The notes: a model not told the origin generated them from the letters alone. A stretch of 13,126 nt of DNA from a virus (IMGVR_UViG_2718217868_000002:1-13126), one strand, 5' to 3'; shown: positions 1,783 through 13,126, numbered from the stretch's first letter. A program made the numbers and translations.

Positions 1783-1809
1783 AAAAAATAAGCCCGTGTA
1801 AGGGAGATT
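1783..1809. other. P2-type attachment core (attL junction) AAAAAATAAGCCCGTGTAAGGGAGATT
   Basis: 27-bp sequence matching my recollection of the phage P2 att core, lying about 80 bp downstream of the int stop codon, where P2 attP is expected. Flanked by a 7-bp inverted repeat GGCTTAT (1771-1777) / ATAAGCC (1788-1794). Confidence 0.6.
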
Positions 1810-5199: not shown

Positions 5200-5471
5200 G
5201 TATTCGTATTGAAATTGGCGAACGTTATGTCGTTACCAGTGACAGCTTCCAGTTTATTCTCCACGAGAAAAAGAGAGCGGAAAGCGGTAAAAACGCCGGT
5301 CAGGAATGGCTGGCGGTGGTTGGTTATTACCCGAAATTAAGCCAGCTCGTTTCCGGCCTGATGCATCACGATATTCTGACCGGAAGCGCAAAGTCTTTTG
5401 CTGATTTAAACGCGCAGGTTGAGCAACTCAGCAAGCGTTGTTCAGAGGCTTTTGGCTCATATGGCCGTTAA
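5196..5471 (+). CDS. Hypothetical early protein (P2 orf83-like, 91 aa)
   Basis: ATG at 5196 (ATGA overlap with upstream gene), GGAGA RBS. Confidence 0.6.
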   Translation: MSIRIEIGERYVVTSDSFQFILHEKKRAESGKNAGQEWLAVVGYYPKLSQLVSGLMHHDILTGSAKSFADLNAQVEQLSKRCSEAFGSYGR

Positions 5472-7773
5472 AGCCTCCGGGCGTTTTGTCCCTCCGTCAG
5501 CATTTGCCGCAGGCACCGGTAAGACGTTTACCGGTGCTTATGCATGGAACGCGCCACGCGAGGCCGTCGGGCGCGAAAGACCCCTTACACGTGACGAGAT
5601 GCGTCAGGTGCAAGGTGTTTTATCCACGATTAACCGCCTGCCTTACTTTTTGCGTTCGCTGTTTACTTCACGCTATGACTACATCCGGCGCAATAAAAGC
5701 CCGGTGCACGGGTTTTATTTCCTCACATCCACTTTTCAGCGTCGTTTATGGCCGCGCATTGAGCGCGTGAATCAGCGCCATGAAATGAACACCGACGCGT
5801 CGTTACTGTTTCTGGCAGAGCGTGACCACTATGCGCGCCTGCCGGGAATGAATGACAAGGAGCTGAAAAAATTTGCCGCCCGTATCTCATCGCAGCTTTT
5901 CATGATGTATGAGGAACTCTGCGATGCCTGGGTGGATGCCCATGGCGAAAAAGAATCGCTGTTTACGGATGAGGCGCAGGCTCACCTGTATGGTCATGTT
6001 GCTGGCGCTGCACGTGCTTTCAATATTTCCCCGCTCTACTGGAAAAAATACCGTAAAGGACAGATGACCACGAGGCAGGCATATTCTGCCATTGCCCGCC
6101 TGTTTAACGATGAGTGGTGGACTCATCAGCTTAAAGGCCAGCGTATGCGCTGGCATGAGGCGTTACTGATTGCTGTCGGGGAGGTCAATAAAGACCGTTC
6201 TCCTTATGCCAGTAAACATGCCATTCGTGATGTGCGTGCACGCCGCCAGGCAAATCTGGAATTTCTTAAATCGTGTGACCTTGAAAACAGGGAAACCGGC
6301 GAGCGCATCGACCTTATCAGTAAGGTGATGGGCAGTATTTCTAATCCTGAAATTCGCCGGATGGAGCTGATGAACACCATTGCCGGTATTGAGCGTTACG
6401 CCGCAGCAGAGGGTGATGTGGGGATGTTTATCACGCTGACCGCGCCGTCAAAGTATCACCCGACACGTCAGGTCGGAAAAGGCGAAAGTAAAACCGTCCA
6501 GCTAAATCACGGCTGGAACGATGAGGCATTTAATCCAAAGGATGCGCAGCGTTATCTCTGCCATATCTGGAGCCTGATGCGCACGGCATTCAAGGATAAT
6601 GATTTACAGGTCTACGGTTTGCGTGTCGTCGAGCCACACCACGACGGAACGCCGCACTGGCATATGATGCTTTTTTGTAATCCACGCCAGCGTAACCAGA
6701 TTATTGAAATCATGCGTCGCTATGCGCTCAAAGAGGATGGCGACGAAAGAGGAGCCGCGCGAAACCGTTTTCAGGCAAAACACCTTAACCGGGGCGGTGC
6801 TGCGGGATATATCGCGAAATACATCTCAAAAAACATCGACGGCTATGCACTGGATGGTCAGCTCGATAATGATACCGGTAGGCCGCTGAAAGACACAGCT
6901 GCGGCTGTTACCGCATGGGCGTCAACGTGGCGCATTCCGCAATTTAAAACGGTTGGTCTGCCGACAATGGGGGCTTACCGTGAACTACGCAAATTGCCTC
7001 GCGGCGTCAGCATTGCTGATGAGTTTGACGAGCGCGTCGAGGCTGCACGCGCCGCCGCAGACAGTGGTGATTTTGCGTTGTATATCAGCGCGCAGGGTGG
7101 GGCAAATGTCCCGCGCGATTGTCAGACTGTCAGGGTCGCCCGTAGCCCGTCGGATGACGTTAACGAGTATGAGGAAGAAGTCGAGAGAGTGGTCGGCATT
7201 TACGCGCCGCATCTCGGCGCGCGTCATATTCATATCACCAGAACGACGGACTGGCGCATTGTTCCGAAAGTGCCGGTCTTTGAGCCTTTGACTTTAAAAA
7301 GCGGCATCGCCGCGCCTCGGAGTCCTGTCAATAACTGTGGAAAGCCTGCCAGCAGTGATACTTCGTTACCGGCTCCCACACCTTCTGAACATGCCGCAGC
7401 AGTGCTTAATCTGGTAGATGACGGTGTTATCGAATGGAGTGACCCGGAGGTTGTGAGGGCGCTCAGGGATGCATTAAAACACGGCCTGAAAACACCAAAT
7501 CGTCAGCAAAGAAACGGAAGCCCGTTAAAACTACATGAAATAGCACCGTCGGCCAGACTGACCAGGTCGGAACGAATGCAAATCACCCGTATCCGCGTTG
7601 ACCTTGTTCAGAATGGTATCAGGCCTCAGCGATGGGAGCTTGAGGCGTTGGTTCGAGGAGCGAGAGTAAATTATGGTGATATGTCATTCAAATTTCCAAT
7701 TGATGATCGATTTTATGATGATGTTAACTCTTTGAATTTATGGAGTATTGAGTCTCGTGTGAACTTCACATAA
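5461..7773 (+). CDS. A: Replication initiation protein A (rolling-circle initiator, P2 A-like)
   Basis: About 770 aa from ATG 5461 (MAVKASGRFVPP...); the track ORF begins at a TTG at 5419. Large GC-rich gene in the position of P2 A. The last ~35 codons (about 7665-7773) switch abruptly to AT-rich composition. Confidence 0.85.
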   Translation: MAVKASGRFVPPSAFAAGTGKTFTGAYAWNAPREAVGRERPLTRDEMRQVQGVLSTINRLPYFLRSLFTSRYDYIRRNKSPVHGFYFLTSTFQRRLWPRIERVNQRHEMNTDASLLFLAERDHYARLPGMNDKELKKFAARISSQLFMMYEELCDAWVDAHGEKESLFTDEAQAHLYGHVAGAARAFNISPLYWKKYRKGQMTTRQAYSAIARLFNDEWWTHQLKGQRMRWHEALLIAVGEVNKDRSPYASKHAIRDVRARRQANLEFLKSCDLENRETGERIDLISKVMGSISNPEIRRMELMNTIAGIERYAAAEGDVGMFITLTAPSKYHPTRQVGKGESKTVQLNHGWNDEAFNPKDAQRYLCHIWSLMRTAFKDNDLQVYGLRVVEPHHDGTPHWHMMLFCNPRQRNQIIEIMRRYALKEDGDERGAARNRFQAKHLNRGGAAGYIAKYISKNIDGYALDGQLDNDTGRPLKDTAAAVTAWASTWRIPQFKTVGLPTMGAYRELRKLPRGVSIADEFDERVEAARAAADSGDFALYISAQGGANVPRDCQTVRVARSPSDDVNEYEEEVERVVGIYAPHLGARHIHITRTTDWRIVPKVPVFEPLTLKSGIAAPRSPVNNCGKPASSDTSLPAPTPSEHAAAVLNLVDDGVIEWSDPEVVRALRDALKHGLKTPNRQQRNGSPLKLHEIAPSARLTRSERMQITRIRVDLVQNGIRPQRWELEALVRGARVNYGDMSFKFPIDDRFYDDVNSLNLWSIESRVNFT

Positions 7774-7776
7774 TAT
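7748..7776 (+). promoter_or_regulatory. Candidate sigma70 promoter for the cargo operon
   Basis: -35-like TTGAGT (7748-7753), 17-bp spacer, -10-like TAATAT (7771-7776), about 50 nt upstream of the SIR2 start. Weak matches; by-eye only. Confidence 0.3.
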
Positions 7777-7827
7777 GGGGCCGTTGTAGGTGTTTGAATA
7801 ATCAGACTTCAATTCAAAGGGATAATT

Positions 7828-9075
7828 ATGGTTATTTATCAAGGTGGTAAGATAATATCTGAAGATGATTTTTATTCTCATCTTTATTCGTTATGTCAGT
7901 TGGATAATGTAGGGGTTCTTTTAGGCGCGGGAGCATCGGTCGGATGTGGCGGCCAAACTATGAAGCAGGTATGGCAGTTTTTTAAATATGAACATCCTGA
8001 TCTATTGAATTTGTTACTAGAAAAATACTTATTGGTTGACAAAACTGAATCTGAACAAGATATAGTTAATGTTGAGCTTCTAATTGATGAAGTAACTAAA
8101 TTCTTGTCTGTGGCCAAAACAAGACGTAATGAAGACGAACAAAAAGAAATTAGTTTAATATTAAGTGCTTTGTATAAACAAGTAACAAAGGCTGCATTGT
8201 TAACTGGAGAAGAGTTTGGTTGTAAAAATCAAGGGAAGAAAAAACAGTTTAAGTCTCATAAAGAATTAATTTCAAAGTTGATTTCAAATAGGCAGCCGGG
8301 ACAATCGGCTCCGGCACTTTTTACTACCAACTATGATTTGGCATTAGAGTGGGCAGCTGAAGATTTAGGAATTCAGCTATTTAATGGTTTTTCAGGATTG
8401 CATACAAGACAATTTTATCCTCAAAATTTTGATTTGGCATTTAGAAATGTCAATGCAAAAGGGGAGGCTAGATTTGGTCATTATCACGCTTATCTATATA
8501 AATTGCATGGCTCTCTTACATGGTATCAGGATGATTTTTTAATAGTTAATGAGATAAGTGCATCTCAGGCATATGATAATTACATTAAAAATATTATTAA
8601 TGGTGACGGTTTTTACTATGGTCAACATTTAATTTATCCGGGGGCTAATAAATATAGCCATACAATTGGTTTTGTTTACGGTGAAATGTTTAGACGTTTT
8701 GGCGAGTTTTTGTCAAAACCTCAAACCGCTTTGTTTATTAATGGGTTTGGGTTTGGTGATTATCATATAAACAGAATTGTTTTTGGTGCTTTGTTAAATC
8801 CGTCATTTCATGTTGTTATTTATTACCCTGATCTGGAGAATGCTTTAGATAAAGTTAGTAGAGGCGTTGCTTCTGAAGGTGAAAAGGCAATTGATGCTTT
8901 AAAAAATATGCAATTCAATCAAGTGACTATCGTGGGTGGGGGGGCAGATGCTTACTTTGATAGTTTTGTGAAACATCTTCCTTATCCGGTGTTGTTCCCA
9001 AGAGAAAATACTGTTGATGACTTGGTTGAAGCTATTTCTAAATTGTCTAAAGGGGAAGGGAATGTCGCATTTTAA
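7828..9075 (+). CDS. SIR2-family (sirtuin-like / DHS-like NAD-binding) protein, predicted NAD+ hydrolase effector (415 aa)
   Basis: ATG at 7828 with AAGGGA RBS. Glycine-rich loop GAGASVGCGG (aa 33-42, nt 7924-7953). TTNYD motif (aa 166-170, nt 8323-8337). HG(S) motif in KLHGSL (His227, nt 8506-8508). Order and spacing match defence-associated SIR2 domains (ThsA/SIR2_2-like). Gene is about one-third GC against ~55-60% in flanking phage genes (hand count on sample 60-mers). Confidence 0.8.
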   Translation: MVIYQGGKIISEDDFYSHLYSLCQLDNVGVLLGAGASVGCGGQTMKQVWQFFKYEHPDLLNLLLEKYLLVDKTESEQDIVNVELLIDEVTKFLSVAKTRRNEDEQKEISLILSALYKQVTKAALLTGEEFGCKNQGKKKQFKSHKELISKLISNRQPGQSAPALFTTNYDLALEWAAEDLGIQLFNGFSGLHTRQFYPQNFDLAFRNVNAKGEARFGHYHAYLYKLHGSLTWYQDDFLIVNEISASQAYDNYIKNIINGDGFYYGQHLIYPGANKYSHTIGFVYGEMFRRFGEFLSKPQTALFINGFGFGDYHINRIVFGALLNPSFHVVIYYPDLENALDKVSRGVASEGEKAIDALKNMQFNQVTIVGGGADAYFDSFVKHLPYPVLFPRENTVDDLVEAISKLSKGEGNVAF

Positions 9076-10882
9076 ACTATCTGAATTATCTGCTATTGGG
9101 TATGTCGTTGGTCTGGAGGGCGAAAAAATAAGGATAAATCTTCATGAAGGATTGCAAGGTAGGCTCGCCTCTCATAGGGATGGTGTTAGTTCTGTTACTC
9201 AGCCTGGAGATTTGATCGGTTTTGATGCCGGAAATATTCTGGTTGTGGCTCGAGTTACAGATATGGCATTTGTCGAGGCTGATAAAGCACATAAGGCAAA
9301 AATAGGTACATCAGATATAGCAGATATGCCGTTAAGGCAAATAATAGCCTATGCAATAGGTTTTATTAGACGAGATATAGATGGATGTGTGTTTGTTTCG
9401 GAAGACTGGAGGTTACCTGCTCTGGGAGCATCCGCTGTCCCGTTAACATCTGATTTTTTAAATATCGTATATAGTATTGATAAAAATGATCTGGATAAAG
9501 CAATTGAGTTAGAAATAGATTCGAGGACTAAATCAGTTAAAATTTTAGCTAGCATTGATAAATTACTAACCAGGCATATGGCTGTTTTGGGCAGTACTGG
9601 ATATGGTAAATCTAATTTTAATGCTTTACTTACACGCCGCATTTCAGAACAGTACCCTAATGCAAGAATAGTAATTTTTGATATTAATGGCGAGTATTCT
9701 CAGGCTTTTGAAGGTGTTGCTAATGTTAAACATACTATTTTAGGTGAGTTACCAAAAGGAGAGTTTCCAAAACCACCTCTACAGAAAGGAGATATATTTT
9801 CTGAGAATGAACATTACTACTATAGAAAAATACCTTATCAAGCATTGGGATTTGCTGGGTTGATAAAATTACTACGCCCTAGTGATAAGACACAATTACC
9901 TGCATTAAGAAATGCGCTTAATGCTATAAATAGTGTTCATTTTTCCGATGATTCATTCTTTCTTAAGGATGAAGTAGGGGGCGTATTTAATATTTTTGAT
10001 GATTGTAGAGATGAAGGGCAAGAGCTTTTATCTGCGTGGTTGAGTTTCTTAAGAAGAGGGATGCTGTGTAAGGCAAATAAATGGCCGCCGTTTAAAAGTA
10101 TTGCTAACTTGGTTGCGGAGTTTGGTTGCGTGGCGGCGGATTCGCGAAAAGCTGGATCTAGTAAACGAGATGCTTTTAGCTATGGTAATGTTCTGCCATT
10201 GATTAAGATAATTCAACAGTTATCAGAGGATTCTAGATTCAAGTATGTTGTTGATTTAAATGGAGGTGGTGAATTATTAAGTGATGGCAAACATTGGGAA
10301 TTAGCTATGAGACAGGAAGTTGATTATTTCTTTGGTAAAGAAAAGGGAGAGGAGAATGACTGGAATATTCATATTGTTAATTTTAAGCATCTTTCACAAG
10401 ATCATGCTCCAATGCTGTTAAGTGCATTATTAGAAATGTTTGCTGAAGTTCTCTTTCTTAGGGGGCAAAACAAAGCTTTTCCAACCGTGTTACTTCTTGA
10501 AGAGGCGCACCACTATTTAAGAGATCCTTATTCTGAAGTTGATGCACAAATTAAAGCTTATGAAAGACTTGCTAAAGAAGGGCGTAAATTTAAATGTTCA
10601 CTTATTGTGAGCACACAACGACCATCAGAGCTTTCATCAACAGTATTAGCAATGTGTGCAAATTGGTTTTCGTTGCGCCTGACAAATGAGCGTGATTTGC
10701 AGACTTTACGGTATGCGATGGAAAGTGGAAATGAGTTAATGATTCGGCAGATTTCTGGGCTTCCAAGAGGAGATGCAATAGCGTTTGGTGCTGCTTTTAA
10801 TATACCCGTAAGAATTTCAATTCACCCTGCTGTACCCGGTCCGAGATCGTCTGACGCAAGTTATTCTCAAGAATGGCGATAA
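9062..10882 (+). CDS. HerA-like (FtsK/HerA superfamily) P-loop ATPase, 606 aa
   Basis: ATG at 9062 preceded by AGGGGAAGGGA; start lies 14 nt inside the upstream gene (translational coupling). Walker A GSTGYGKS (aa 177-184, nt 9590-9613). Walker B-like VLLLEEAHH (aa 476-484, nt 10487-10513). TQRP motif (aa 518-521, nt 10613-10624), characteristic of HerA/VirB4-type ATPases. N-terminal ~170 aa is consistent with a HAS-barrel. AT-rich like its partner. Confidence 0.8.
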   Translation: MSHFKLSELSAIGYVVGLEGEKIRINLHEGLQGRLASHRDGVSSVTQPGDLIGFDAGNILVVARVTDMAFVEADKAHKAKIGTSDIADMPLRQIIAYAIGFIRRDIDGCVFVSEDWRLPALGASAVPLTSDFLNIVYSIDKNDLDKAIELEIDSRTKSVKILASIDKLLTRHMAVLGSTGYGKSNFNALLTRRISEQYPNARIVIFDINGEYSQAFEGVANVKHTILGELPKGEFPKPPLQKGDIFSENEHYYYRKIPYQALGFAGLIKLLRPSDKTQLPALRNALNAINSVHFSDDSFFLKDEVGGVFNIFDDCRDEGQELLSAWLSFLRRGMLCKANKWPPFKSIANLVAEFGCVAADSRKAGSSKRDAFSYGNVLPLIKIIQQLSEDSRFKYVVDLNGGGELLSDGKHWELAMRQEVDYFFGKEKGEENDWNIHIVNFKHLSQDHAPMLLSALLEMFAEVLFLRGQNKAFPTVLLLEEAHHYLRDPYSEVDAQIKAYERLAKEGRKFKCSLIVSTQRPSELSSTVLAMCANWFSLRLTNERDLQTLRYAMESGNELMIRQISGLPRGDAIAFGAAFNIPVRISIHPAVPGPRSSDASYSQEWR

Positions 10883-11036
10883 TCTTGTGGGAGAATGTAA
10901 TAGGATAACGATAAGTGCATCTATCTGCATTAATTCGAATAAGGTTGAGAGGAGTTCAAAAACAAATTTAGACCGGCATTAGAGTGATTTAGATAGACAT
11001 ATGCAACTGCATTAAAACCGCCCCATGAAGCGGGCG

Positions 11037-11055
11037 GGCGAGGCGGGGAAAGCAC
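11037..11055. other. cos site: 19-nt P2-type cohesive-end sequence GGCGAGGCGGGGAAAGCAC
   Basis: Exact 19-mer matching my recollection of the P2 cohesive end, in the expected prophage position between the right-end accessory genes and Q. Preceded by a GC hairpin, CCGCCC (11018-11023) / GGGCGG (11032-11037). Confidence 0.55.
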
Positions 11056-11196
11056 TGCGCGCTGGCGGTGGTGCTGATTTTATTTTTTCAGCGTCTGAGC
11101 GCGTCGTGATGGCGTTTAGATTGTTAGCCGGGGCGTTGGTGTGTCTGCGGGCTGTTTTGTGCGGTGGTGAGCGTGTGAGGGCGTGATGGCGGGGTG

Positions 11197-11220
11197 TAAA
11201 AAAGCCGCCCGCAGGCGGCG
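11197..11220 (-). terminator. Rho-independent terminator downstream of Q
   Basis: GCCGCC (11204-11209) / GGCGGC (11214-11219) stem with CGCA loop, immediately followed on the minus strand by a T-run (plus-strand A-run 11198-11203), 4 nt after the Q stop codon. Confidence 0.65.
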
Positions 11221-11224
11221 ATGT

Positions 11225-12259
11225 TCAGCCGTTGTCAGTGTCCAGTGAGTAGTTTTTAAAGCGGATGACCTCCTGACCGAGCCAGCCGTTTATCTCGCGG
11301 ATCCTGTCCTGTAACGGGATAAGCTCATTGCGGACAAAGACCTTTGCCACTTTCTCAATATCACCCAGCGACCCGACGTTCTCCGGCTTGCCGCCCATCA
11401 ACTGAAAGGGGATGCGGTGCGCGTCCAGCAGGTCAGCGGCGCTGGCTTTTTTGATATTAAAAAAATCGTCCTTCGTTGCCACTTCACTGAGCGGGATAAT
11501 TTTAATGCCGTCAGCTTTCCCCTGCGGGGCATAGAGAAACAGGTTTTTAAAGTTGTTGCGGCCTTTCGACTTCACCATGTTTTCGCGAAGCATTTCGATA
11601 TCGTTGCGATCCTGCACGGCATCGGTAACGTACATGATGTATCCGGCATGAGCGCCGTTTTCGTAATACTTGCGGCGGAACAGCGTGGCTGACTCATTCA
11701 GCCAGGCAGAGTTAAGGGCGCTGAGATATTCCGGCAGGCCGTACAGCTCCTGATTAATATCCGGCTCCAGCAGATGAAACACGGAGCCAGGTGCGAAGGC
11801 TGTCGGCTCGTTGAAGGAAGGCACCCACCAGTAAACATCCTCCTCCACGCCACGGCGGGTATATTTTGCCGGTGAGGTTTCCAGTCTGATGACCTTGCCG
11901 GTGGTGCTGTAACGCTTTTCCAGAAACGCATTGCCGAACACCAGAAAATCCAGCACAAAGCGGCTGAAATCCTGCTGGGAAAGCCACGGATGCGGGATAA
12001 ATGTCGAGGCCAGAATATTGCGTTTGACGTAAATCGGGGAGCTGTGATGCACGGCAGCACGCAGGCTTTTTGCCAGACCGGTAAAGCTGATTGGTGGCTC
12101 ATACCATCTGCCGTTACTGATGCATTCGACGTAATCCAGAATGTCACGGCGGTCGAGTACCGGCACCGGCTCACCAAAGGTGAATGCCTCCATTTTCGGG
12201 GCGCTGGCGGTCATTTTTTTTGCCGCAGGTTGCGGTGTTTTCCCTTTTTTCTTGCTCAT
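11225..12259 (-). CDS. Q: Portal protein Q (344 aa, P2 Q-like)
   Basis: ATG at 12257-12259 (minus), TGA at 11225-11227. Size and sequence recognised as the P2 capsid portal protein; leftward-transcribed gene adjacent to cos, as in P2. Confidence 0.9.
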   Translation of the reverse strand: MSKKKGKTPQPAAKKMTASAPKMEAFTFGEPVPVLDRRDILDYVECISNGRWYEPPISFTGLAKSLRAAVHHSSPIYVKRNILASTFIPHPWLSQQDFSRFVLDFLVFGNAFLEKRYSTTGKVIRLETSPAKYTRRGVEEDVYWWVPSFNEPTAFAPGSVFHLLEPDINQELYGLPEYLSALNSAWLNESATLFRRKYYENGAHAGYIMYVTDAVQDRNDIEMLRENMVKSKGRNNFKNLFLYAPQGKADGIKIIPLSEVATKDDFFNIKKASAADLLDAHRIPFQLMGGKPENVGSLGDIEKVAKVFVRNELIPLQDRIREINGWLGQEVIRFKNYSLDTDNG

Positions 12260-12528
12260 CAGTAAAACTCCAGAATGGTGGATGTCAGCGGGGTGCTGAT
12301 ACCGGCGGTGAGTGGCTCATTTAACAGGGCGTGCATGGTCGCCCAGGCGAGGTCGGCGTGGCTGGCTTCCTCGCTGCGGCTGGCCTCATAGGTGGCGCTG
12401 CGCCCGCTGCTGGTCATGGTCTTGCGGATAGCCATAAACGAGCTGGTGATGTCGGTGGCGCTGACGTCGTATTCCAGACAGCCACGGCGGATAACGTCTT
12501 TTGCCTTGAGCACCATTGCGGTTTTCAT
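12259..12528 (-). pseudogene. P: Truncated terminase large subunit P (C-terminal ~90 codons only)
   Basis: Minus-strand frame that ends with a TGATG stop/start overlap onto Q, the P-Q operon arrangement. The frame is closed by a stop about 45 codons further upstream and the sequence beyond ~12540 instead reads as coding on the plus strand. An intact P would be about 590 aa. Upstream boundary approximate. Confidence 0.5.
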
Positions 12529-12540
12529 TTCCGGTGTGTG

Positions 12541-12624
12541 CCTCCTCTTGAAAACCTGACCCTGCGCCAGCGTATTACCGATAAATACCTGGCAAATCTG
12601 GTCACCTCGGTTAACAGCAATTAA
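12541..12624 (+). pseudogene. FI: 3' remnant of tail sheath gene FI (last ~28 codons)
   Basis: Plus-strand frame with host-typical codons (CTG, CGC, CAG, ACC) ending at TAA 12622-12624, directly upstream of the FII RBS AAGGAG (12624-12629). Assignment is by position relative to FII. Left boundary uncertain. Confidence 0.35.
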
Positions 12625-12636
12625 GGAGCCTGACCG

Positions 12637-12852
12637 ATGGCAATGCCGCGCAAACTCAAGTTAATGAACGTCTTTCTGAACGGCTACAGCTATCAGGGCG
12701 TTGCAAAGTCCGTCACGCTGCCAAAACTGACCCGTAAGCTCGAAAACTATCGCGGTGCGGGGATGAACGGCAGCGCACCGGTAGACCTCGGCCTTGATGA
12801 CGATGCTCTGTCAATGGAGTGGTCGCTCGGTGGATTCCCGGATTCGGTTATA
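12637..12852 (+). pseudogene. FII: Truncated tail tube gene FII (N-terminal 72 codons)
   Basis: ATG at 12637 after AAGGAG. N-terminus MAMPRKLKLMNVFLNGYSYQGVAKSVTLPKL... recognised as P2 FII. The reading frame breaks after ...GGFPDSVI (about 12852) and then runs to an early stop at 12898-12900. Confidence 0.6.
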
Positions 12853-12853
12853 T

Positions 12854-13126
12854 GCCACGAAAGCACAGGCCATGCGCGCCGCTCAGGCGAAGTGGGATAA
12901 ACTGCAACGGGGCGTTGCGGAGTTCTCCATCAGCCTGGCTACTGGTCGGGCAGATATTTACACGGAAACACCGGTCAAAGTGTCTGGCTTTAAGCGCGTC
13001 ATAGACGAGCAGGACTGGACAATCACTAAGGTGACACACTTTCTGAATAATAGTGGCTTCACGACGTCCTTAGAACTTGAGGTAAGGCTTTCTGATGTGG
13101 AGTACGAAACAGAAGATGATGAGTGA
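12854..13126 (+). pseudogene. D: C-terminal fragment of tail protein D (~90 codons), fused out of frame to FII'
   Basis: Second frame reads ...ATKAQAMRAAQAKWDKLQRGVAEFSISLATGRADIYTETPVKV...SDVEYETEDDE with stop at 13124-13126. Recognised as the C-terminus of P2 gpD (the K-12 yegZ-like remnant). The N-terminal part of the track ORF (12794..) is an out-of-frame read of FII. Confidence 0.55.

What the first reader, a model, noticed from the sequence alone, without database searches (positions are those of the whole stretch)
7665..11015. Cargo sits in the P2 tin/old slot, with the left recombination junction inside the 3' end of gene A
In P2 the interval between replication gene A and cos holds the dispensable anti-phage genes tin and old. 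Here that interval holds the SIR2/HerA cassette. Composition switches from GC-rich to AT-rich about 35 codons before the A stop codon (around 7665) and returns to GC-rich just before the cos hairpin (around 11015). The in-frame AT-rich tail of A (...VNYGDMSFKFPIDDRFYDDVNSLNLWSIESRVNFT) implies the cassette was exchanged by recombination within the end of A, carrying its own A C-terminus with it. That would be a concrete mechanism for hotspot cargo swapping.
Basis: partly seen in the sequence, partly recalled or inferred. Interest (0 to 1): 0.7.

Follow-up and report, generated by a model that had tools for sequence, protein, structure and literature searches.

The report
SIR2-HerA cargo in P2 hotspot
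A defective P2-like prophage carries a known SIR2-HerA anti-phage cassette in the well-known variable slot between replication gene A and cos, and the swapped block does begin inside the last ~35 codons of gene A, a detail I did not find in the papers I could read.

Summary
Maximum-likelihood GC change points fall at 7665 and 11018, with GC 0.54 / 0.36 / 0.55. Identity to phage P2 (96.7%) stops at 7675 and resumes at 11008.

In 80 related P2-like loci with 41 cargo types, the gpA C-terminal tail follows the cargo. Same-cargo tail identity is 0.93 against 0.43 for different cargo (0 of 2000 permutations). In 27 of 40 cargo types the break lies inside A's last 4-31 codons.

The window's AT-rich tail has two layers. 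The first is a diverged but genuine copy of gpA's last beta-hairpin. The second is a probably disordered extension carrying an NSLNxW signature. That signature also sits next to SIR2-HerA in three other, much more diverged P2-like lineages.

Linkage between cargo and flank decays over about 300 nt to the left and vanishes exactly at core cos on the right. This fits one homologous crossover in A, with the genome end at cos as the other boundary.

The hotspot and its SIR2+HerA cargo are already published (Rousset 2022). The junction inside A was not found in the papers I could read.

Side finding: three phased TGCAT repeats lie upstream of core cos, and P4 has them too.

The parts
5461..7773 (+). 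Replication gene A (gpA, 770 aa), a rolling-circle initiator. The position equivalent to the P2 ori nick is about 7319.
   Evidence: Pfam PF05840 E 1.7e-124. PGAP CDS in the identical record CP010170. 96.7% nt identity to P2 A up to 7675. The ori position is mapped from the P2 annotation.
7664..7713 (+). Tail layer 1: an AT-rich, diverged but homologous copy of gpA's terminal beta-hairpin (R-VNY-GDMS-FKFPIDDRF). The cargo-linked allele starts at about 7664 (AGA codon). Nucleotide identity to P2 ends at 7675.
   Evidence: Nucleotide alignment. BLAST break. The motif F.[YF]P[VIL].[DE].[WF] occurs at the same offset as in 30 of 40 other tails, with a shuffle frequency of 4e-5. The framework is conserved in A homologues down to about 43% identity. 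AF2 strands at residues 166-168 and 171-173, pLDDT 89-95.
7714..7773 (+). Tail layer 2: a cargo-specific C-terminal extension (YDDVNSLNLWSIESRVNFT plus stop), predicted disordered. Its DNA contains blocks conserved among SIR2-HerA cassettes of diverged P2-like lineages: AACTCnTTGAAT..TGG at 7727-7743 and TCATAAT at 7768-7774, the latter overlapping the TAA stop.
   Evidence: pLDDT 57 then 39 for residues 181-200. The NSLNxW signature occurs in L087, L099 and L003. Conserved blocks in alignment A1.
7774..7827 (+). Intergenic leader of the cassette, with a conserved AAAGGG Shine-Dalgarno-like block before the SIR2 ATG.
   Evidence: Alignment A1. Homology to the 78% cassette (L003) starts at 7787.
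7828..9075 (+). SIR2 family NADase component (415 aa).
   Evidence: PADLOC SIR2 PDLC02186 E 3e-188. Pfam SIR2_2. Full-length match to PDB 8J4U chain A, E 6e-231.
9062..10882 (+). HerA-type ATPase component (606 aa). Its start overlaps the SIR2 end by 14 nt.
   Evidence: PADLOC HerA PDLC02185 E 1e-270. Pfam DUF87. PDB 8J4U chain M, 1068 bits. PGAP start.
10916..10940 (.). Three phased repeats 10 bp apart: TGCAT 10916-10920, TGCAT 10926-10930 and a degenerate TCGAAT 10935-10940. They are conserved at -95/-82/-72 from core cos in P2-like loci whatever the cargo, and are also present in satellite P4.
   Evidence: 45-fold positional enrichment; 35 of 41 cargo-type representatives have at least 2 exact copies. 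P4 right end.
10941..11007 (.). Spacer between the repeats and core cos. Its length is nearly constant, its sequence is variable, and it is still linked to the cargo.
   Evidence: Right-anchored comparison. Same-cargo identity 0.893 against 0.408 for different cargo.
11008..11064 (.). Core cos, with an inverted repeat at 11018-11037 and the 19-nt cohesive end at 11037-11055. This is the right edge of the swapped block.
   Evidence: Identity to the P2 right end. P2 cosR annotation. Linkage to the cargo disappears immediately to the right.
11225..12259 (-). Portal gene Q, the right flank of the hotspot.
   Evidence: Pfam PF04860. PGAP annotation.

Best explanation
The window is a deletion remnant of a P2-like prophage. 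Its known gpA-cos accessory slot holds a SIR2-HerA anti-phage cassette. By homology, this is an NAD+-depleting abortive-infection system built from a HerA hexamer and a SIR2 assembly.

The unit that moves between P2-like genomes is larger than the two genes. It starts inside gene A at about 7664-7676 and ends at core cos at about 11007. It therefore brings its own version of the last ~35 codons of A. That tail consists of a diverged copy of gpA's final beta-hairpin followed by a cassette-specific, probably disordered extension. It also brings the TGCAT repeats and the spacer on the cos side.

Exchange most likely happens by homologous recombination between P2-like genomes. The crossover falls in the conserved part of A. 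In the linear packaged genome the block is the extreme right end, so cos supplies the other boundary and one crossover is enough. Repeated crossovers have trimmed the linked flank down to the point where identity collapses.

Shown here: the break points, the tail-cargo linkage, the tail homology, and the asymmetric decay of linkage. Inferred: the recombination pathway, the single-crossover logic, and any function of the extension, such as housing the cassette's promoter.
For: Composition and identity breaks at 7665/7675 and 11008/11018.

Among 80 related loci with 41 cargo types, tail identity is 0.925 for same-cargo pairs and 0.427 for different-cargo pairs, with 0 of 2000 label permutations reaching the observed value. 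The break lies inside A in 27 of 40 cargo types: 11 at 7648-7696 and 16 at 7709-7723. Post-break tails have 0.17-0.45 GC (omitting a 6-nt tail that scored 0.0), like the cargo at 0.32-0.45.

The second break cluster coincides with the end of the confidently folded part of gpA (residue ~181 = nt 7711-7713).

The same tail and cassette occur on different A haplotypes (WIN, L060, L004), switching at about 7657-7664.

The NSLNxW extension lies next to SIR2-HerA in Scandinavium (L087), in a metagenome contig (L099), and in decayed form in L003/L088.

Cargo-flank linkage decays over about 300 nt on the left and is absent upstream of about 7400. It holds up to 11007 and is absent from 11065 onward on the right.

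The tail-bearing A occurs in an apparently complete prophage in strain 317.

Cargo identity.
Against: No experiment was done here. The recombination pathway is inferred from population patterns.

The 80 loci are the closest of at least 595 relatives and are not independent, so the permutation result overstates significance.

From my own knowledge, unverified here: classical P2 crosses show very little general recombination, so exchange may be rare, or may occur between prophages rather than in lytic co-infection.

The homologous cassette in L003 joins A at 7482. Its tail region is broken by stops and frameshifts, leaving a 706-aa A in an otherwise complete-looking prophage. The tail is therefore not strictly required to travel intact.

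No Chi site is present.

A promoter inside the tail is not supported by the consensus scan, where hits are no more frequent than in shuffles.

The tail's profile score against other tails is weak: 4.4 bits, rank 5 of 1001.
Confidence: 0.75

Rival explanations
1. Illegitimate insertion: the cassette was inserted into the 3' end of A by non-homologous joining. On this view the tail is just read-through into foreign DNA until a stop codon appears, and is not an A-derived sequence.
For: The last ~19 codons (7714-7773) have no counterpart in other tails and are predicted disordered. AT-rich DNA gives stops quickly. A capture event of this kind must have happened once, when a P2-like phage first acquired the cassette. 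Relatives in Vibrio, Shewanella and Photobacterium have no A or Q nearby and unrelated upstream DNA.
Against: Codons 169-181 keep the gpA framework F-x-[YF]-P-[VIL]-x-[DE]-x-[WF] at the correct offset, with a shuffle frequency of 4e-5. AF2 folds them as the last hairpin with pLDDT 89-95. The same framework is present in A homologues at 43-60% identity. The extension itself is conserved across four diverged P2-like lineages.
Confidence: 0.1
2. The gpA C-terminus is a hypervariable region under its own diversifying selection, for example to escape a defence or a satellite that targets gpA. On this view its association with cargo is only physical linkage and not co-transfer of a module.
For: The tail is the least conserved part of A across the family. 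Any polymorphism next to the cargo would be in linkage with it.
Against: The post-break tails share the low GC of the cargo, not the GC of A. The same extension signature follows the same cargo across A backbones that are 58-100% identical. Other cargo types also have their own extension signatures, such as FDLF, SFF[MI] and EDITDIKW. The extension is predicted disordered.
Confidence: 0.1
3. The low-GC tail is simply the native, colinear end of A in this phage lineage, and there is no junction inside A.
For: At the protein level the tail is colinear with other gpA ends as far as the conserved aromatic residue.
Against: P2 and most relatives are 93-97% identical to the window up to 7675 and unalignable after it. 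The P2-type tail is 0.53 GC against 0.31 here.
Confidence: 0.02

Closest known systems
P2 old/tin locus, the gpA-gpQ (cos-proximal) defence hotspot of P2-like phages (Odegrip 2006; Rousset et al. 2022, PMC9122126; NAR 2026, PMC13586616)
   Same: Same position between gpA and cos/portal. Low-GC, highly variable cargo among otherwise near-identical phages. Rousset's supplementary P2 table lists the arrangement SIR2_2 + DUF87, named 'SIR2 + HerA (Gao et al., 2020)'.
   Different: Those papers delimit the hotspot by whole genes (gpA, gpQ). In the text I could search they do not describe a junction inside A, cargo-specific gpA tails, or the TGCAT repeats (term searches). Odegrip 2006 and Nilsson 2004 were not available to me and may mention where homology ends.
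SIR2-HerA anti-phage system (Gao 2020; solved E. coli complex PDB 8J4U, 8SU9, 8SXX, 8UAE)
   Same: Two overlapping genes in the order SIR2 then HerA. Full-length matches to both solved chains and to the PADLOC models.
   Different: This is an allelic variant that clearly differs in sequence from the solved SIR2 (alignment). The 78%-nt E. coli variant (L003/L088 type) starts MSIY like the solved protein. Activity was not tested here.
P4 satellite cos-adjacent hotspot
   Same: The hotspot abuts the shared cos. P4 also has the three TGCAT repeats, about 64 nt upstream of core cos.
   Different: In P4 the repeats follow psu, and the cargo (gop-beta-cII) lies on the other side of cos. In P2-like phages the cargo lies on the repeat side.
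Module exchange in lambdoid phages at conserved boundary sequences, sometimes inside genes (general phage-mosaicism literature; my own knowledge, not checked here)
   Same: Homologous crossovers in conserved flanks swap non-homologous cassettes, so junctions can fall inside coding regions where the protein tolerates it.
   Different: Here one boundary is the physical genome end (cos). The other is the tolerant C-terminus of an essential replication initiator.

Membership tests
P2-like gpA-cos/gpQ defence hotspot | Left flank is the replication endonuclease gpA | tested here: met
   PF05840 E 1.7e-124. 96.7% nt identity to P2 A.
P2-like gpA-cos/gpQ defence hotspot | Right flank is the P2 cos site followed by portal gene Q | tested here: met
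   The P2 cosR 19-mer lies at 11037-11055. Portal PF04860 at 11225-12259.
P2-like gpA-cos/gpQ defence hotspot | Content varies among phages whose flanking core genes are nearly identical | tested here: met
   41 cargo clusters in 83 loci with 95-100% identical A fragments. Varied annotations in GenBank phages and E. coli genomes.
P2-like gpA-cos/gpQ defence hotspot | Cargo protects the lysogen against other phages | not testable with these tools
   Inferred only from homology to SIR2-HerA.
SIR2-HerA defence system | Adjacent SIR2-domain and HerA/DUF87 ATPase genes in one operon | tested here: met
   7828-9075 and 9062-10882, same strand, 14-nt overlap.
SIR2-HerA defence system | Full-length similarity to validated or solved members | tested here: met
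   PADLOC E 3e-188 and 1e-270. PDB 8J4U chains A and M, E 6e-231 and 1068 bits.
SIR2-HerA defence system | NADase and ATPase catalytic residues intact; NAD+ depletion on infection | not tested
   Residue-level check not done. The alignment to 8J4U is gap-free over 415 aa.
gpA (P2 rolling-circle initiator) | Complete C-terminal framework ...ERWELEALARGATVxYGxKKFxYPVxDEW | tested here: met
   The window has ...QRWELEALVRGARVNYGDMSFKFPIDDRF, with W replaced by F. AF2 hairpin pLDDT 89-95.

The most novel reading that the evidence does not exclude
The cargo-specific C-terminal extension of gpA may be more than passive read-through. On this reading its DNA is the cassette's own regulatory region, for example a -10-like TCATAAT overlapping the A stop and a conserved AACTCnTTGAAT block. 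The peptide itself might also be matched to the cargo, for example by sparing the phage's own replication from its defence system. In that case each defence cassette in this hotspot would be a three-part unit: gpA tail/adapter, system, and cos-side repeats. The disordered end of an essential gene would then act as the docking point that makes single-crossover cargo swapping possible.
Probability: 0.2. Interest if true: 0.6.

Novelty: already known. Interest (0 to 1): 0.4.

Why it matters
The two main papers on this hotspot leave open how cargo is swapped so fast. One speculates about cos ends plus a second homologous event (PMC9122126). The other says the mechanism is presumably different from that of mobile elements (PMC13586616).

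The fine structure found here makes that question testable. The left edge lies inside a tolerant, partly disordered end of gpA. The right edge is core cos. Linkage decays within about 300 nt on one side and instantly on the other. This predicts where crossovers should fall in crosses and which flanks to use when engineering cargo swaps.

It also warns that gene-level delimitation (gpA to gpQ) misses part of the module.

The TGCAT repeats shared with P4 suggest the functional packaging signal is longer than the commonly quoted 55-bp cos. That matters for P2/P4 cosmid design.

Tried and rejected
- The 78%-identical cassette matches start exactly at the SIR2 ATG and run through cos, so I suspected they sat in P4-like satellites. 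They are in a complete P2-like prophage next to pflA.
- The short match in strain T16R looked like a relic of cargo replacement. It is the same cassette with IS903B inserted in HerA.
- I looked for Chi sites as a cause of the left break. There are none in the window.
- The sigma-70 promoter scan of 7400-11300 gave 12 hits against 12.1 expected, with none on the + strand in the tail. By eye, TTGAGT-15 nt-CATAAT is weak and its -35 is not conserved.
- The direct repeat AATTATGGT... at 7669 and 7824 brackets the tail. Repeats of this quality are expected by chance in AT-rich DNA, so I left it as a note.
- An HMM built from the other tails scores the window tail at only 4.4 bits, rank 5 of 1001 shuffles. 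I relied on the positional motif test and AF2 instead.
- Upstream regions of SIR2-HerA in Vibrio, Photobacterium, Shewanella and Marinomonas show no similarity to the tail or leader, so no donor context was identified.
- Odegrip 2006 (PMC1367236) is not held.
- The first left/right flank alignment run timed out. It was redone.
Full report
**What the window is.**
The window is identical to E. coli strain H6 (CP010170). It runs from yegS through a P2-like prophage integrated between yegR and yegQ. The gene order is int, C, cox, the early genes, A (5461-7773), SIR2 (7828-9075), HerA (9062-10882), cos, portal Q (11225-12259), then only fragments of P, a tail-tube gene and D. Strain 317 has the same cassette and the same A allele at the same site in an apparently complete prophage. 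The window's element is therefore a deletion remnant.

**Checking the observation.**
- The GC drop is real and sharp.
- A two-change-point likelihood fit puts the switches at 7665 (support 7648-7680) and 11018 (support 11002-11030), with GC 0.539 / 0.362 / 0.550.
- The 98-nt tail of A has 0.306 GC, whereas no 98-nt window in the body of A falls below 0.429.
- Against phage P2 itself, identity is 96.7% from 5400 to exactly 7675, just after the VNY codons. It resumes at 11008, 48 bp before P2's right end.
- The P2 cohesive-end sequence lies at 11037-11055.
- In GenBank phages and in about 2,200 E. coli genomes, most matches to this A gene also stop at 7673-7675. Some stop at 7706.

**Is the tail part of the cargo?**
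I fetched 80 close P2-like loci from IMG/VR and anchored them on conserved A sequence and on cos. The A-to-cos intervals fall into 41 clusters among 83 loci.

- *Association.* The gpA C-terminal peptide follows the cargo. Mean tail identity is 0.925 for same-cargo pairs and 0.427 for different-cargo pairs, and none of 2000 label permutations reached that value. The loci are related, so that count is not a true probability.
- *Break positions.* Against the consensus, 27 of 40 cargo types break inside A: 11 at 7648-7696 (the window is one of these) and 16 at 7709-7723. The other 13 keep the P2-type end ...PGFSTVMEWT, and their similarity to the consensus continues past the A stop. In P2 that stop overlaps orf91 (DUF3850).
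- *Composition.* Post-break tails have 0.17-0.45 GC, like their cargo (0.32-0.45). One 6-nt tail that scored 0.0 is left out of that range. The P2-type tail is 0.53.
- *Different backbones.* Carriers of this cassette (WIN, L060, L004) are identical from about 7664 onward but differ upstream. The block has therefore been placed on different A backbones.

**The tail is a diverged gpA end, not random DNA.**
A homologues down to about 43% identity share the framework ...ERWELEALARGATVxYGxKKFxYPVxDEW, followed by a short variable end. The window has ...RGARVNYGDMSFKFPIDDRF. The pattern F.[YF]P[VIL].[DE].[WF] sits at the same offset as in 30 of 40 other tails and arises in 4e-5 of composition-matched shuffles. 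The pattern was written after seeing the data.

AlphaFold2 on the last 200 residues, using a 60-sequence alignment, gives:
- a beta-hairpin at residues 166-168 and 171-173, with pLDDT 95 and 89 for residues 161-180;
- pLDDT 57 and 39 for residues 181-200.

Residue 181 corresponds to nt 7711-7713, exactly where the second cluster of population break points lies. So the tail has two layers. The first is a diverged copy of the last folded element (7664-7713). The second is a cargo-specific, probably disordered extension (7714-7773).

**Deep linkage of the extension to SIR2-HerA.**
- A genome scan with the SIR2 protein found a P2-like prophage in Scandinavium lactucae. There A is only 78% identical in protein along its whole length, yet the tail ends ...GFCDDDNSLNHWAVSS, compared with ...RFYDDVNSLNLWSIES in the window. 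GC again drops only at the tail.
- A partial A from a metagenome, 58% identical, ends ...SFDCNNSLNLWCDHER and is followed by SIR2 and HerA.
- The 78%-nt E. coli variant of the cassette (L003, in a complete prophage by pflA) joins A further upstream, at 7482. Its tail region is broken by stops and frameshifts but still contains DGFNSLNEW.
- No other cargo type in the sample has this signature.
- Other cargo types show their own extension signatures that diverge together with the cargo, such as FDLF, SFF[MI] and EDITDIKW.
- An alignment of the six SIR2-HerA-linked junctions shows conserved DNA blocks: AACTCnTTGAAT..TGG (7727-7743), TCATAAT (7768-7774, overlapping the A stop) and an AAAGGG ribosome-binding block.
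- Non-P2 relatives in Vibrionaceae and other marine genera have unrelated upstream DNA.
- These blocks may be regulatory, but the promoter scan gives no support. This remains a hypothesis.

**Linkage around the block.**
- *Left.* Same-cargo pairs are more alike than different-cargo pairs only in the last ~300 nt of A: 0.971 against 0.941 at 7415-7489, and 0.970 against 0.872 at 7640-7714. There is no difference upstream of about 7400.
- *Right.* Linkage persists through the TGCAT repeats (0.954 against 0.616) and the spacer (0.893 against 0.408). It is marginal in core cos (0.979 against 0.954). It is absent immediately beyond (0.787 against 0.791 at 11065-11140).

In the packaged linear genome this block is the extreme right end. 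My inference, from the standard genetics of cos phages, is that one homologous crossover in A plus cos cutting exchanges it. Repeated crossovers would then erode the linked part of A down to where identity fails. From my own memory, unverified here, P2 recombines poorly in standard crosses, so these events may be rare or may occur between prophages.

**Comparison with what is known.**
- The gpA-gpQ hotspot is well described (PMC9122126; PMC13586616; a bioRxiv hotspot survey).
- Rousset's P2 table lists SIR2_2 + DUF87 as 'SIR2 + HerA (Gao et al., 2020)'.
- The cargo matches the PADLOC SIR2 and HerA models and the solved E. coli complex 8J4U/8SU9 over its full length.
- The system and its location are therefore already known.
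- In the papers I could search I found no mention of a junction inside A, of cargo-specific gpA tails, or of break points. Odegrip 2006 was not available.

**Side finding on the right edge.**
About 70-95 nt upstream of core cos, 35 of 41 cargo-type representatives have at least two exact, phased TGCAT motifs 10 bp apart, usually with a third, less exact one. This is a 45-fold positional enrichment. In the window they are at 10916-10940. Satellite P4 has the same three repeats about 64 nt upstream of its core cos, after psu, while its cargo lies on the other side of cos. Conservation in both helper and satellite suggests an extended packaging signal. One accessible paper quotes a 55-bp shared cos and notes that longer flanks improved transduction. 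In P2 the repeats also overlap the region upstream of the old-tin transcript starts.

**Verdict.**
The hotspot and cargo are known. The added value is the fine anatomy of the swapped module and a testable exchange model.

Noticed in passing
window 10916-10940 (also L085 902-930 in phage P4): There are three TGCAT repeats 10 bp apart, about 70-95 nt upstream of core cos. They are conserved in 35 of 41 cargo-type representatives of P2-like loci and in satellite P4, and are separated from core cos by a spacer of near-constant length but variable sequence. This is possibly an extended packaging (terminase) signal. In P2 the repeats overlap the region upstream of the old-tin transcript starts.
   Followed up: partly
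window 12259-13126: The prophage is a deletion remnant. After portal Q only fragments of terminase P, a tail-tube gene and D remain before ogrK (annotation of the identical record). Strain 317 has the full-length prophage with the same cassette at the same site. Strain MB7671 has a different deletion.
   Followed up: partly
L003 8701-9002 (E. coli Combat13F7) and L088 1430-1690: A 78%-identical SIR2-HerA cassette joins A at the position equivalent to window 7482. It is preceded by a decayed, frameshifted A tail, leaving a 706-aa A in an otherwise complete-looking prophage. It is unknown whether that phage can still replicate.
   Followed up: partly
window 7669-7686 and 7824-7841: The direct repeat AATTATGGTGATATGTCA / AATTATGGTTATTTATCA (15 of 18 identical) brackets the A tail. 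One copy lies at the identity break and the other at the SIR2 start codon. Repeats of this quality are expected by chance in AT-rich DNA, but the placement is striking.
   Followed up: no
window 1783-1809: A 27-nt exact match to a site at the far end of the related prophage in strain MB7671 (L004 16930-16956). It is probably the attachment-site core repeat (attL here), between yegR and int.
   Followed up: no
window 7190-7339: The stretch around the position equivalent to the P2 ori nick (about 7319) is the most conserved part of the A 3' half (pairwise identity about 0.99). Cargo-linked divergence begins just downstream of it.
   Followed up: no
L098 4995-5963 (E. coli T16R): An IS903B insertion truncates HerA in a copy of the 78% variant cassette.
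   Followed up: yes
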